From the sequence record ON470617.2: DNA of 64,000 nt, one strand, 5' to 3'. The notes under the pieces are model-generated. The model did no database searches. It was not told where the DNA came from and saw only the letters and a list, made by a program, of their open reading frames with translations. This document shows positions 12,765-42,611 of the stretch, one piece after another. How positions within the stretch are numbered: position 1 is the stretch's first letter; every line of letters starts with the position of its first letter. Origin of the DNA: Escherichia phage vB_EcoM-813R1. A program made the position numbers and the translations under genes.

Positions 12765-12781
12765 AAATTTATTAGAGCAAA
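12765..12781 (-). promoter_or_regulatory. C1 repressor operator (16/17 match to ATTGCTCTAATAAATTT) upstream of kilA-repL
   Basis: Top strand aaatttattagagcaaa; located 70 bp upstream of the kilA start. Confidence 0.65.
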
Positions 12782-14365: not shown

Positions 14366-14433
14366 ACTATAAGCCTGAACGATTAAAAGGTCAATATGAT
14401 GCGAAAAGATAGCATTCGCGACTTAAAAATACA

Positions 14434-14450
14434 AATTTATTAGAGCATTA
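14434..14450 (-). promoter_or_regulatory. C1 operator (16/17) with overlapping second degenerate copy, at the immI promoter
   Basis: Top strand aaatttattagagcatt followed by atttgtgcaataaatgcac. Confidence 0.6.
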
Positions 14451-40032: not shown

Positions 40033-41103
40033 TCAGCCAACAGTGCTCGTGCAAATCTCTTGGTGGTTTTTCGACAAATGCCTCTTCAGCCACATCCTGC
40101 CAGGGATTTGTTTAGCCCATTCAGCTATAGCGTTATGGTTTGCCGAGAATAACGGTATTGTATAGGCCTTCAGCCAGTCTAATGTGCTGGAGTTGTGTTT
40201 TTGAGCGTGATGTTTCGCATGGTGTTTGGCGATCACGATCGTAGGCACTACCCATTTACTACCGTCAGTCATTGTGAAGTGCATATTACGGGGAACAGAT
40301 GACTTTTCCATCAACTCCCGAATCCCGGGAAATTTCCCCAAGATCAATCGGCGATATTCATCGCTATTGCGCCCACCAAACTCTTTGGCTTTGAATTCAA
40401 GATATGCTTCAGAAACGAGAGGTGAATCCTCTGTGTTTAGAGTTATCGCCGTGAAAAAACCAGCAGGATTGTTTTTACTATGGGCCAACCGGTGATGCGA
40501 ATCATAAAAGTACCCTTTCTCGCGTTCCGATGGTTTCGACAGCAACAGCAGGCGCGAGTCATAATTGGTTAAATTGCCAGTTATCACTGCATGAGCGCGA
40601 TCGCTGATTTCCGCCGAGTTAATAACGATGAAAAGATCGTGCGGTCCAGTAAAACCAGCCAGAGACTCTTCGTTATTCAGACAATAGGTTATATAGACGC
40701 ATCCCCATGTTTCACTGATATGCACCAACCCTTTGTCAGGGTGTATTCTGAAATAATTGCCAAGAAAAGGGTGTTTTTGGGTAACTCGCTCCCAATAACG
40801 GAACATATAGTCAATTATTGTTTTTCGACTATCGTTAATCGCAGGAGAAACAACCACTGTACGGGAACACGAATACAGTATTGTTTGCAGGATGCTAATC
40901 ACTGCCACAATAGAGGTTTCCCCAATACCATGTGGTGTGGTGGCAGTGACTTTGGCTCCGGTGTTCTTTATCGCGTTAATAATTTTTGCTTGATGAGGTG
41001 TTAACTCAATATCAAGCAACTCTTTTGCTGCCAGTTCCCAATTGTCTTTATACCGTTCTATCAGTGCTAACCAGGCAGATTCATTCTGTATACGATTAAT
41101 CAC
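40033..41103 (-). CDS. Hypothetical protein with degenerate P-loop, terminase-large-subunit-like N-terminal region
   Basis: 356-aa ORF; N-terminal TPHQAKIINAI...TATTPHGIGETSIVAV resembles a Walker-A region with Thr in place of Lys; the last about 70 aa are His/Lys-rich and low-complexity (possible frame error). Confidence 0.3.
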   Translation of the reverse strand: MINRIQNESAWLALIERYKDNWELAAKELLDIELTPHQAKIINAIKNTGAKVTATTPHGIGETSIVAVISILQTILYSCSRTVVVSPAINDSRKTIIDYMFRYWERVTQKHPFLGNYFRIHPDKGLVHISETWGCVYITYCLNNEESLAGFTGPHDLFIVINSAEISDRAHAVITGNLTNYDSRLLLLSKPSEREKGYFYDSHHRLAHSKNNPAGFFTAITLNTEDSPLVSEAYLEFKAKEFGGRNSDEYRRLILGKFPGIRELMEKSSVPRNMHFTMTDGSKWVVPTIVIAKHHAKHHAQKHNSSTLDWLKAYTIPLFSANHNAIAEWAKQIPGRMWLKRHLSKNHQEICTSTVG

Positions 41104-41883
41104 TTTCCACCTCTTCCGTGGTGTTTTCTTGCAGTTCTGTTAATGCAGCACGACATAGGTTCCGGGCATTGGCTATAGCCACACTTTTGACTTCATCCGT
41201 CATCGTGCAGGTAATGTACTGATCGAGTTCTTCAGCGCGGATGATGCTTTTGCCAATCAGAAACTGTATTTGCCATAGCAGATCGGCATCCATAATCAGA
41301 ATTTCTGCCGGGCCTTCAGGGCCAGCCGGGAAGGAAACATAAGACTGTTTGCCCAGGCCGACAACTCGACAACTTGCTTCAAGAATTGCGCGCTTGAGGT
41401 CTGACTTTATAACGGAAACAGGTTGATTTTCACCAGTGATTACGCCGTTGACATGGAAAGGCATGTAGCTTGAAATACGCTCCACTTTCCACACGCCAGC
41501 AAGCGATCCTTCATGCAGCACAATGGGGGTAACCGCGAGTTTCATCTCACCATATAACTGCTGGCAGATAGCTGGATTGCTGAATACATCTAAAGGCTCA
41601 CATTCAAACAGCGGCGCAATCTGCATGAGGTCCATCATGGTCATCCCTGGGGTACGAGCAGTAATGAATTTGCGCATACCAGTATCCATTGCGCTCCAGA
41701 TTGCTACACCATGCTTTTTGCTCACTTCTTCAGTAAAGCCAAGGTGGCACATGATGGTTTTTTCGATAGCCAGATCGGAGATAGAAACCTTTTCGCCAGG
41801 TACACCATCATTATTGATGGTCACTTCGACACTCTGGCCATTACGCAGGCGGTATTGAATTGTTTTAGTATTTTGTGCTGCCA
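41096..41883 (-). CDS. Hypothetical protein (about 262 aa)
   Basis: ORF 41096-42004, probable start MAAQNTKTIQ at 41883; overlaps the downstream gene start by 8 nt; no recognisable motif. Confidence 0.3.
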
Positions 41884-42086
41884 TAGTCTTTTCTCTGCTT
41901 AAAAACTGATGTATTGCGCCTTCAGGTGGGTCAGGAATGTTTTCCCACCAGCGAAAGCAATATCTCGGGGTGTTCTGTTCGTTAAAAACGCGTTCCATTG
42001 CCAACTTTGGCGTTTTTTAGCGAGTTCGTGCTTTTGTTGGCGTTTGGACCACCGCTTTTCTTTCAGTCGTTTTTTACTCATAAACT

Positions 42087-42575
42087 CTAAAACGGAATAT
42101 CGTCTTCAAAGTCCATTGGAGGTTCGTTATTGGCGCTGCTCTGAGGTTTGCCACCACCGCTGTATTGCTGGTGGTTTTGAGGTTGGTTTGACTGCCCCCA
42201 GCCATTTGAGGACTGTGAATCGTCGCGGCGAGCGCCGATCATTTGCATGGTGCCGCCCTGGCTGACGATAATTTCCGTCGTGTAACGTTCTACACCGGCG
42301 TCATCTGCCCACTTACGGGTTTTAAGTTTCCCTTCGATGTAGACCTGAGAACCTTTTCGTAAATACTCACTCGCAATTTCAGCAAGTTTTCCGAACAAAA
42401 CGACTTTATGCCATTCTGTTTGCTCTTTCTGTTGGCCCGTTTGCTTGTCGCGCCATGATTCATTCGTTGCGATGCTGAGTCTTCCGACCGCGCCGCCATT
42501 TGGTATATACCTGATCTCCGGGTCTTGCCCCAGGGTGCCAATCAGGATGACTTTGTTTACACCGCGTTGTGCCAC
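42087..42575 (-). CDS. ssb: Single-stranded DNA-binding protein
   Basis: 162-aa ORF with OB-fold core ([23 protein letters not shown]...) and the acidic C-terminal tail DFEDDIPF diagnostic of SSB. Confidence 0.92.
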
Positions 42576-42594
42576 TTATCTTACCTAATAAAAT

Positions 42595-42611
42595 AAATTA
42601 ATTAGAGCAAT
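42595..42611 (-). promoter_or_regulatory. C1 operator (16/17) in the ssb/lyz divergent promoter region
   Basis: Top strand aaattaattagagcaat, 20 bp upstream of the ssb start. Confidence 0.6.

What the first reader, a model, noticed from the sequence alone, without database searches (positions are those of the whole stretch)
40033..42081. Uncharacterised gene pair upstream of ssb, one with a degenerate terminase-like P-loop
Two overlapping minus-strand genes between the dar terminator and ssb have no function I can assign. The first has an N-terminal region resembling a terminase large-subunit ATPase but with GIGETS in place of a canonical Walker A lysine, suggesting a non-catalytic or altered NTPase; its C-terminal 70 residues are His/Lys-rich and may be out of frame. 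This interval corresponds to the isaA/isaB/IS1/hxr region of P1, a known site of insertions.
Basis: partly seen in the sequence, partly recalled or inferred. Interest (0 to 1): 0.45.

Follow-up and report, generated by a model that had tools for sequence, protein, structure and literature searches.

The report
Dead terminase paralogue beside IsaA
This P1-like phage-plasmid carries, next to the known gene isaA, a conserved copy of the ATPase half of its own DNA-packaging enzyme (PacB) that has lost every catalytic residue and its nuclease half, so it probably works by binding something rather than by packaging DNA.

Summary
Between ssb and the hxr/ddr terminator lie two overlapping minus-strand genes.

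The ssb-proximal gene (41096-41884) is P1 IsaA, about 95% identical.

The ssb-distal gene (40033-41103) is not IsaB. It is a paralogue of the N-terminal ATPase domain of PacB, the P1-family large terminase:
- It is 35% identical to PacB over 269 aa (E 3e-52), and the AlphaFold model matches solved terminase ATPase domains.
- Walker A Lys is Glu, Walker B Asp-Glu is Ile-Asn, and the arginine and coupling-motif positions are changed. The nuclease domain is replaced by a ~100-aa domain of unknown function.
- It belongs to a monophyletic clade of such proteins, nested within PacB-type terminases, in which every sampled member lacks the Walker A lysine and the Walker B Asp-Glu.
- Selection is purifying (dN/dS about 0.2-0.3).
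- The isaA pairing, with overlapping stop and start, recurs at about 50% identity at a different site in D6-like phage-plasmids.
- It is accessory: 120 of about 500 P1-like plasmids carry it, and reference P1 has IS1 plus isaB in its place.

Only the last 22 residues are out of frame, through a C3-versus-C4 homopolymer deletion that is probably a sequencing error. The His/Lys-rich stretch is genuine.

The function is inferred, not shown: a non-catalytic binding protein made early, acting on packaging proteins or on whatever targets them.

The parts
40033..41103 (-). PacB-paralogue pseudo-terminase ('TerLps'), 356 aa as read in the window. Residues 1-260 form a terminase ATPase fold with dead motifs (Walker A GIGE62TS, Walker B position I161-N162). 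Residues ~262-334 are a conserved C-terminal domain of unknown function. The last 22 aa are out of frame.
   Evidence: ORF. phrog_5902 at 6.5e-171 and phrog_2 at 3.3e-9. 35% identity over 269 aa to P1 PacB, E 3e-52. Motif table. AF2 pLDDT above 90 for residues 1-260. Foldseek to terminase ATPase domains. dN/dS 0.2-0.3.
40010..40105 (-). 3' end of the same gene in the frame used by all relatives: ...IPWQDVAEEAFVEKPPRDLHEHCWLTSEKSFS, stop TGA at 40010-40012. It is reached only if a fourth C is restored in the C run at about 40105.
   Evidence: tblastn of P0001 residues 334-364 hits 40105-40013 in another frame. DNA alignment shows CCC against CCCC. 364 aa in the 25 other loci. Plasmid matches span 1072 nt for the 1071-nt query.
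41096..41884 (-). isaA (262 aa from ATG 41884). Its stop overlaps the GTG start of the pseudo-terminase (GTGATTAA), and GAGGTG lies just upstream as a likely ribosome-binding site.
   Evidence: 94-95% identity to P1 IsaA. phrog_2326 covers 2-261/264 from this ATG. Homologues of 44-48% identity start at the equivalent Met. The upstream extension annotated in P1 contains a TAA here and stops in other variants. dN/dS 0.12-0.22.
41899..42081 (-). Small basic ORF (60 aa, MSKKRLKEKRWSKRQQKH...) that starts 6 nt after the ssb stop and ends 15 nt before the isaA ATG. Possibly a third gene of the operon.
   Evidence: ORF. This frame is open in all 11 full-length sequence variants of the region, while the IsaA-extension frame carries stops in several. 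No family match (Pfam E 0.02 only).
42087..42575 (-). ssb, the first gene of the operon.
   Evidence: 98% identity to P1 Ssb.
42595..42611 (-). C1 repressor operator (P1 Op21/Ossb), ATTGCTCTAATTAATTT, overlapping the ssb promoters. It implies early-lytic, C1-repressed transcription of ssb and the genes downstream of it.
   Evidence: Pattern search: 5 sites against 0.03 expected. Identical to the annotated P1 operator. No promoter-like or terminator-like site on the minus strand between ssb and 40033.
39981..40004 (.). Perfect 10-bp hairpin AAATCCCGCC-GATT-GGCGGGATTT between the convergent ssb-isaA-TerLps and ddr-hxr operons. Likely a bidirectional terminator.
   Evidence: Read directly from the sequence. 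Retained next to isaA in SJ46, where the pseudo-terminase gene is precisely absent. Not picked up by the simple scan (T-run criterion).

Best explanation
What it is (about 0.9 confidence). The interval holds the distal part of the early, C1-controlled ssb operon of a P1-like phage-plasmid: ssb, a small basic ORF, isaA, and a PacB-derived pseudo-terminase (TerLps). TerLps descends from a duplicated large-terminase gene of the P1 lineage. It kept the ATPase-domain fold and several surface and structural motifs (N-terminal DPRW...NW...QQ, LAG, FYDSHH, EDSPLV, YGGRxSxxYR, LGxFP). It lost the Walker A lysine, the Walker B Asp-Glu, the conserved arginine, the coupling motif and the entire nuclease domain. 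It gained a ~100-aa C-terminal domain. It therefore cannot hydrolyse ATP, translocate DNA or cut DNA.

How it most likely works (inferred, about 0.35-0.4). It is a binding protein, made stoichiometrically with IsaA through the overlapping stop/start. It would use the retained terminase surfaces to engage a partner of PacB: PacA, PacB itself in a mixed ring, or the portal. In that way it would modulate or block pac cleavage and packaging early in lytic growth. It is dispensable and polymorphic, so the role is accessory or conflict-related rather than core morphogenesis.

Shown: homology, fold, motif loss, purifying selection, gene pairing, operon position, distribution.

Inferred: expression timing (from the P1 operator), complex with IsaA, binding partner, effect on packaging.
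For: Homology and fold:
- PacB E 3e-52.
- The nearest active relatives among 1.8 billion representative proteins are ~500-aa PacB-type terminases.
- The AF2 model is confident over residues 1-260 and matches solved terminase ATPase domains.

Motif loss:
- Lys is 100% conserved in 58 terminases but is Glu here. Walker B DE is IN. The arginine is Ile. GNPT/SQPT is SKPS. The nuclease aspartates are deleted.

One ancient origin and long persistence:
- The degenerate clade is monophyletic in 99/100 bootstraps, and the degenerate clade plus the PacB-type terminases together are monophyletic in 100/100; the degenerate clade sits among the PacB-type branches in the tree.
- Members are as low as 31-33% identical to the window protein, and all lack the Walker A lysine and the Walker B Asp-Glu.

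Not a pseudogene:
- dN/dS is 0.22-0.34.
- A 364-aa ORF is intact in the 25 other loci and 119 plasmids.

Pairing with IsaA:
- Adjacent and overlapping in P1-type elements, and again at 48-52% identity in D6-like plasmids at a different site: pacA-pacB-c1-recombinase-...-dut-Tad2-like-IsaA-TerLps.

Early operon:
- The P1 Op21 operator is conserved, with no intervening promoter or terminator found.

Accessory status:
- PLSDB counts are ssb 500, isaA 336 and TerLps 120 plasmids.
- Absent from reference P1 and SJ46, with precise gene-boundary breakpoints.
- isaA is non-essential by CRISPRi (PMC10695390).
Against: No experiment or co-folding prediction links TerLps to PacA, PacB, the portal or IsaA. 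The PacA-binding and portal-binding surfaces of PacB are not mapped, so 'retained surfaces' is an argument from conservation only.

A regulator of the phage's own packaging would be expected in the core genome. This gene is present in only about a quarter of P1-like plasmids, and it sits in a variable region beside anti-defence genes (Tad2-like in relatives, dar/ddr next door).

Each partner also occurs alone: IsaA without TerLps (SJ46, L076) and a TerLps-like gene without an adjacent IsaA (L073, L091).

The invariant Q motif and GxG glycines leave open residual nucleotide binding.

The C-terminal domain has weak relatives in replication and recombination modules, which points elsewhere.
Confidence: 0.45

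Rival explanations
1. Counter-defence decoy. TerLps, perhaps with IsaA, is made early. It would occupy or divert host immune sensors that recognise the terminase ATPase domain (Avs1-3, Upx), or satellite or competitor proteins that target PacB, and so shield the real terminase.
For: The gene sits in a polymorphic accessory region. In D6-like, SJ46 and some P1-like elements the gene directly upstream of IsaA is a true Tad2 (anti-Thoeris) homologue: Pfam PF11195 at 1.6e-22, solved Tad2 structures at 5e-20. The dar/ddr anti-restriction operon is convergent with it. Transcription is predicted to be early and C1-controlled. The ATPase domain alone is what Avs2 binds and is sufficient to trigger Upx, and Upx does not need catalytic residues (PMC13601566).
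Against: A protein recognised by these sensors would be expected to activate them, not block them. Avs2 recognition uses terminase-bound ATP, which a protein lacking the Walker A lysine, like this one, is unlikely to hold. No terminase-like decoy appears among known anti-defence proteins. There are no PADLOC or other family matches. The window itself has no Tad2-like gene.
Confidence: 0.2
2. Weapon against related elements. TerLps acts as a dominant-negative subunit that poisons the PacA/PacB-type terminase of competing P1/P7/D6-like phage-plasmids, i.e. packaging interference or exclusion.
For: It is a dead paralogue of exactly the terminase type these elements use. Each lineage carries its own diverged version. 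It shows presence/absence polymorphism typical of conflict genes. From my own knowledge, not from a tool result: satellites (SaPIs, PICIs) interfere with helper packaging through terminase-binding proteins.
Against: It lies behind a C1-repressed promoter (inferred), so it would not be made in the lysogen, where exclusion is useful. It would have to spare its own PacB. There is no evidence of interaction.
Confidence: 0.13
3. Replication or recombination accessory. The protein works with Ssb at the replication fork or in recombination through its C-terminal domain, with the dead ATPase fold serving as a scaffold or DNA-binding module.
For: It is co-operonic with ssb in P1-type elements, and with dut and a recombinase in D6-type elements. 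The C-terminal domain matches phrog_17928 (1e-13). It also matches, weakly, a 470-aa protein with a weak, below-cutoff DUF1351 match that lies next to recombinase, exonuclease and SSB genes in Xanthomonas phage SAC, and a small ORF beside DnaB in Cronobacter phage JK004.
Against: The phage-record matches are marginal (E about 2e-3). Short family members lack the C-terminal domain entirely. The gene is dispensable and absent from most P1-like plasmids.
Confidence: 0.1
4. Decaying relic. A broken duplicate of pacB with no function, with the frameshift in the window as a sign of ongoing decay.
For: All catalytic motifs and the nuclease domain are gone. The window copy has a 3' frameshift. The gene is dispensable.
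Against: dN/dS is 0.2-0.3. The ORF is intact at 364 aa in the 25 other loci and 119 plasmids. The clade persists down to about 31-33% identity to the window protein with conserved non-catalytic motifs. The overlapping start with isaA is conserved. The window has a second C-run deletion in ddrB 1.2 kb away, which points to homopolymer sequencing error.
Confidence: 0.05
5. Altered but active NTPase: a non-canonical P-loop that still binds and hydrolyses a nucleotide.
For: The GxG glycines of the P-loop and the upstream Q motif are invariant across the clade.
Against: The lysine position is E, R, H, M, T, I or C in different members. The Walker B acidic pair is lost in all, and the following Ser/Thr is not conserved. 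No compensating conserved residue is evident.
Confidence: 0.05

Closest known systems
PacB, large terminase ('pacase B subunit') of P1, P7 and D6
   Same: Homologous over the whole N-terminal ATPase domain (35% identity, E 3e-52, PacB residues 11-274), with the same fold. The window gene's clade groups with the PacB-type terminases, which are its closest active relatives.
   Different: No Walker A lysine, no Walker B Asp-Glu, no nuclease domain, and a different C-terminal domain. It is not next to pacA and lies in the early ssb operon. It is accessory rather than essential.
T4 vs.8, an uncharacterised phage protein homologous to the T4 terminase ATPase domain (Evans et al. 2026, PMC13601566)
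   Same: A phage-encoded stand-alone paralogue of the phage's own terminase ATPase domain, of unknown role.
   Different: vs.8 keeps its Walker A and B motifs and is toxic when co-expressed with Avs2. The P1-type protein has lost them. No sequence relationship was tested here.
P1 IsaA (IS1-associated gene A), PHROG 2326
   Same: The gene at 41096-41884 is IsaA at 94-95% identity.
P1 IsaB
   Same: Occupies the same slot between isaA and hxr in reference P1.
   Different: Unrelated protein (phrog_30162 against phrog_5902, with only spurious alignment).
Satellite packaging-interference and terminase-redirecting proteins (SaPI Ppi, PICI TerS-like proteins); from my own knowledge, not tested here
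   Same: Non-catalytic proteins that act on a terminase by binding it. This is the kind of mechanism proposed.
   Different: Those proteins are not terminase-large-subunit derivatives and are encoded by satellites, not by the phage itself. No homology is implied.

Membership tests
Terminase large subunit (functional TerL/PacB) | ASCE ATPase-domain fold homologous to TerL | tested here: met
   AF2 pLDDT above 90 for residues 1-260. Foldseek top hits are Sf6 gp2, P74-26, HK97 and T4 gp17 ATPase domains, E 2.5e-9 to 3e-7. PacB E 3e-52.
Terminase large subunit (functional TerL/PacB) | Walker A GxxxxGK[ST] with the catalytic lysine | tested here: not met
   HGIGE62TS. The lysine is 100% conserved in 58 aligned terminases and in all 14 PacB-type proteins. 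It is E/R/H/M/T/I/C in the degenerate clade.
Terminase large subunit (functional TerL/PacB) | Walker B hhhhDE with the catalytic glutamate | tested here: not met
   IVDEAS in active relatives against FIVI161N162SA here.
Terminase large subunit (functional TerL/PacB) | C-terminal RNase H-like nuclease domain with catalytic aspartates | tested here: not met
   About 130 residues are missing relative to PacB. The second conserved Asp column is deleted and the third is Glu. The C-terminal 100 aa do not fold confidently.
Terminase large subunit (functional TerL/PacB) | Encoded beside a small-terminase/PacA gene in the packaging module | tested here: not met
   The neighbours are isaA, ssb and hxr. 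In P1 and D6-like records pacA-pacB lie elsewhere. IsaA shows no similarity to PacA (hhalign probability 0.2%).
P1 IsaA | Full-length sequence identity and position downstream of ssb | tested here: met
   94-95% identity over the 262-aa core, same position.
P1 IsaB | Sequence similarity to IsaB | tested here: not met
   Only a gapped, spurious alignment. Different PHROG families.
Pseudogene / decaying relic | Relaxed selection and disrupted reading frames across relatives | tested here: not met
   dN/dS is 0.22-0.34. Only the window copy is disrupted, at a homopolymer.
Known anti-phage defence or anti-defence protein families | Match to a curated defence or anti-defence model | tested here: not met
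   No PADLOC, Pfam or NCBIfam hit for either protein. Only the neighbouring gene in relatives is Tad2-like.
Non-catalytic PacB-paralogue clade (PHROG 5902 and relatives) | PacB-type ATPase fold, loss of Walker A Lys and Walker B Asp-Glu, no nuclease domain, monophyly | tested here: met
   phrog_5902 at 6.5e-171. Clade alignment and tree.
Non-catalytic PacB-paralogue clade (PHROG 5902 and relatives) | Absence of ATPase activity, and binding to a packaging or immune partner | not testable with these tools
   Needs biochemistry or multimer prediction, which were not available here.

The most novel reading that the evidence does not exclude
P1-supergroup phage-plasmids keep a catalytically dead copy of their own terminase ATPase domain, co-translated with IsaA. 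It would serve as a molecular decoy or poison in conflicts centred on the packaging motor: either shielding PacB from terminase-sensing immune receptors (Avs1-3, Upx) or from satellite inhibitors, or sabotaging the terminase of rival P1/D6-type elements. That would be the first terminase-derived pseudoenzyme with a role in phage-host or phage-phage conflict.
Probability: 0.3. Interest if true: 0.8.

Novelty: new variant of a known kind. Interest (0 to 1): 0.5.

Why it matters
Large terminases are treated as invariant, essential motors, and they are now known to be a main target of bacterial pattern-recognition immunity. A conserved, selected, catalytically dead paralogue inside a well-studied phage family is therefore unexpected. 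P1-like phage-plasmids are also widespread carriers of resistance genes in E. coli and Salmonella.

The gene escaped notice because reference P1 happens to carry IS1 and isaB in its place. Public records call it 'hypothetical protein' or, misleadingly, 'terminase large subunit'.

It gives a concrete handle on two questions. First, what the isaA variable region is for. Second, whether phages use pseudo-enzymes derived from their own core machinery for regulation or conflict.

Practically, annotation pipelines and terminase-based phylogenies or pac/cos typing should not count this gene as a terminase.

Tried and rejected
- IsaA as a PacA (small-terminase-like) paralogue, which would have made the pair a duplicated pacAB: hhalign probability 0.2%. 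Rejected.
- IsaA N-domain related to the N-terminal part of the neighbouring Tad2-like protein: only a short GV..FITAR match, hhalign probability 6.8%. Not accepted.
- IsaB as a remnant of the terminase-like gene split by IS1: no similarity. P1 homology stops exactly at the isaA stop codon. Rejected.
- Pfam, NCBIfam and PADLOC on both proteins: nothing significant.
- PDB sequence search with the IsaA profile: nothing.
- The afdb50 fold library was unavailable.
- Scan of one genome per species: only 3 loci, one of them an active Xenorhabdus PacB, so no wider host range was found.
- Scan of viral contigs for the short homologue P0149: nothing. An alignment of the short forms was too divergent to scan with.
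- Literature searches for a PacB paralogue, an inactive terminase or a terminase decoy: no description found.
- The simple promoter/terminator scan found no minus-strand site in the interval. It also missed the obvious hairpin at 39981-40004.
- dN/dS pairs that involve the window copy are inflated by its frameshifted tail and were not used.
Full report
**Context.** The window is a P1-like phage-plasmid. The interval 39500-42600 is 96.7% identical to 'Punavirus P1' MH422554 and matches reference P1 only in part. On the minus strand the order is:
- ssb (42087-42575);
- a 60-aa ORF (41899-42081);
- an ORF ending at 41096;
- an ORF at 40033-41103.

Then comes a hairpin, followed by the convergent hxr/ddrB genes. 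The P1 C1 operator Op21/Ossb is present unchanged upstream of ssb at 42595-42611. The consensus scan found no promoter-like or terminator-like site on the minus strand between ssb and 40033. By inference from P1, the genes downstream of ssb are therefore part of an early, C1-repressed transcript.

**The observation.** Both genes exist and overlap by 8 nt (GTGATTAA), with GAGGTG just upstream of the second start. The sequence TTPHGIGETS is there. Terminase similarity is real but weak at the level of general profiles (phrog_2, 3.3e-9). It is strong once the right relatives are used.

**The ssb-proximal gene is IsaA.** It is 94-95% identical to P1 IsaA. The conserved protein starts at ATG 41884 and is 262 aa. 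Three results support this:
- PHROG 2326 and all homologues of 44-48% identity begin there.
- The 56-aa N-terminal extension annotated in P1 is interrupted by TAA in the window.
- That extension also carries stops in several other variants.

**The ssb-distal gene is a dead paralogue of PacB.** It is not IsaB. A word-indexed search found only a 98% cluster (851 members, E. coli), a 53% homologue, and then canonical ~470-aa terminases.

The exhaustive HMMER search of 1.8 billion representatives found 1147 relatives. The closest fall into two groups:
- proteins of ~260-440 aa that share the odd motifs;
- ~500-aa proteins with canonical motifs.

The second group includes the PacB proteins of D6, P7 and P1. 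Directly against P1 PacB, the window protein is 35% identical over 269 aa (E 3e-52), covering PacB residues 11-274, which is the ATPase domain. The AlphaFold model is confident over residues 1-260. Its best PDB matches are all terminase ATPase domains.

*Motifs.* In 58 canonical terminases and 14 PacB-type proteins the motifs are conserved, and here they are changed:

| Position | Active terminases | Window protein |
|---|---|---|
| Walker A lysine | invariant Lys | Glu62 |
| Walker B | Asp-Glu | Ile161-Asn162 |
| Conserved arginine | Arg | Ile138 |
| Coupling motif | GNPT / SQPT | SKPS |

The nuclease domain is absent. After the LGxFP linker there are only ~100 residues, which do not align with the RNase H-like domain and do not fold confidently. 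All ten sampled members of the degenerate group share these losses. The residue replacing the lysine varies (E, R, H, M, T, I, C), which argues against an alternative catalytic solution.

*Origin.* The degenerate group is monophyletic in 99/100 bootstraps. It groups with the PacB-type terminases in 100/100. This fits one ancient duplication and inactivation, followed by long retention.

**It is a maintained gene, not a wreck.** Among distinct P1-type and D6-type sequences, dN/dS is about 0.22-0.34 for this gene and 0.12-0.22 for isaA.

The reading frame is 364 aa in the other 25 P1-type and related loci, and 119 of 120 plasmid matches cover at least 80% of the gene. Only the window copy is 356 aa, because a C run is CCC instead of CCCC near 40105. 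This shifts the last 22 residues. With the fourth C the gene would end at TGA 40010-40012, immediately before the hairpin.

The window also has a second one-base deletion in a C run (CC against CCC) that splits ddrB into two ORFs 1.2 kb away. Homopolymer sequencing error is therefore the likeliest cause of both.

**The pair is a module, but a loose one.** In D6-like phage-plasmids an IsaA homologue (47-49% identity) and a pseudo-terminase homologue (48-52%) are again adjacent and overlapping. They sit in a different place: pacA-pacB-c1-recombinase-two ORFs-dut-Tad2-like-IsaA-TerLps, followed by doc/phd on the other strand.

Some P1-type elements and SJ46 have a Tad2-like gene between ssb and isaA. 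The Tad2 assignment is solid: Pfam at 1.6e-22, solved Tad2 structures at 5e-20.

Other arrangements show that the two genes can separate:
- In a third lineage, a 263-aa short form follows a Cys/His-rich ORF that I read as HNH-like (not checked against any family). It lies ~9 kb downstream of the active pacB, and an IsaA-like gene sits earlier in the same region.
- IsaA occurs without the pseudo-terminase in SJ46 and L076.
- A pseudo-terminase occurs without an adjacent IsaA in L073.

*Distribution.* In PLSDB, P1-type ssb is in 500 plasmids, isaA in 336 and the pseudo-terminase in 120.

Reference P1 shares the window only up to 39976 and from 41095 onwards, so IS1 plus isaB replace the gene exactly at the isaA stop codon. 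SJ46 lacks 40007-41095 precisely.

The literature knows this as variable region RD-2 / 'region 2' (isaA-IS1-isaB) and as a cargo hot spot (PMC9603915, PMC6906374). I found no description of a PacB paralogue.

**How it probably works.** The shown facts are these:
- terminase fold;
- no catalytic residues and no nuclease;
- conserved non-catalytic motifs;
- purifying selection;
- overlapping start with isaA;
- early-operon position;
- accessory distribution.

From these I infer a protein that acts by binding. The most economical partners are those of its parent PacB: PacA, PacB in a mixed ring, or the portal. The effect would be a modulating or inhibitory one on pac cleavage and packaging early in lytic growth. 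I give this about 0.35-0.4.

The accessory, variable-region setting beside anti-defence genes keeps two conflict readings alive.
- One is a decoy connected with terminase-sensing immunity. Avs2 binds the ATPase domain, and Upx is triggered by the ATPase domain alone, independently of catalysis (PMC13601566).
- The other is a dominant-negative weapon against rival P1/D6-type elements.

Both lack direct support. A recognised decoy should trigger rather than block, and the loss of the ATP site argues against Avs2-type recognition.

A replication or recombination role is suggested only by the ssb/dut neighbourhood and by marginal matches of the C-terminal domain. The relic and active-NTPase readings are disfavoured by the selection and motif data.

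**Comparison and novelty.** The closest known protein is PacB. The gene fails the tested defining features of a functional large terminase other than the ATPase fold itself, so the label 'terminase large subunit' in MH422554 is misleading.

The nearest precedent for a phage-encoded terminase-ATPase paralogue is T4 vs.8. That protein keeps its Walker motifs, and its role is also unknown.

I rate this a new variant of a known kind: a terminase-derived pseudoenzyme family restricted, as far as sampled, to P1-supergroup phage-plasmids of enterobacteria and to related metagenomic contigs. Interest is moderate. The anatomy is clear and somewhat surprising, the function is open, and it is directly testable.

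Noticed in passing
window 41899-42081 (-): A 60-aa, very basic ORF (MSKKRLKEKRWSKRQQKHELAKKRQSWQW...) starts 6 nt after the ssb stop and ends 15 nt before the isaA ATG. Its frame is open in all 11 full-length sequence variants of this leader. The overlapping frame that P1 annotates as the IsaA N-terminus has stop codons in several of them. In SJ46 and some other P1-type loci the same leader precedes a Tad2-like gene instead of isaA. It is possibly an unannotated small gene.
   Followed up: partly
window ~38887; ORFs 36694-38994 and 38991-39680 (+): ddrB is split into 766-aa and 229-aa ORFs by a one-base deletion in a C run (CC against CCC in L004 and MH422554). It is a single 995-aa ORF in P1. 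Together with the C-run deletion near 40105, this suggests homopolymer errors in the assembly, so other frameshifts in the window should be treated with suspicion.
   Followed up: yes
L085 7526-8188; L003 3301-4146: D6-like plasmids, SJ46 and some P1-type elements carry a 220-aa protein directly upstream of isaA. Its C-terminal domain is a clear Tad2 (anti-Thoeris / AcrIIA7-like) homologue: Pfam at 1.6e-22, PDB 9eib and 8v3e at about 5e-20. The window lacks it.
   Followed up: partly
L091 5330-6792: In a third P1-related lineage the short (263-aa) pseudo-terminase overlaps the end of a 224-aa protein with a Cys/His-rich motif (CTACW...HHVNG...CRWHH) that I read as HNH-like; it was not checked against any family. 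From my own knowledge, HNH endonucleases are partners of terminases in some phages. The meaning here is unknown.
   Followed up: no
P0001 residues ~262-364; L087 1879-3291; L086 4010-4306: The ~100-aa C-terminal domain of the pseudo-terminase (VIAKHHAxHHAxKH...TLxWLK..TIPLF.A.HNAI.EWAK.IPW) recurs in three places: phrog_17928; weakly at the end of a 470-aa protein with a weak, below-cutoff DUF1351 match in the recombination module of Xanthomonas phage SAC; and as a 98-aa ORF beside DnaB in Cronobacter phage JK004. It looks like a small mobile domain of unknown function.
   Followed up: partly
window 39981-40004: A perfect 10-bp hairpin with a 4-nt loop lies between the convergent operons. It is retained next to isaA in SJ46, where the pseudo-terminase gene is absent, so the gene swaps occur exactly between the isaA stop codon and this terminator.
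   Followed up: partly
window 12765-12781, 14433-14449, 62472-62488, 62555-62571: Four further matches to the P1 C1 operator consensus (1-2 mismatches), against 0.03 expected by chance. They presumably correspond to other C1-controlled operons of the element.
   Followed up: no
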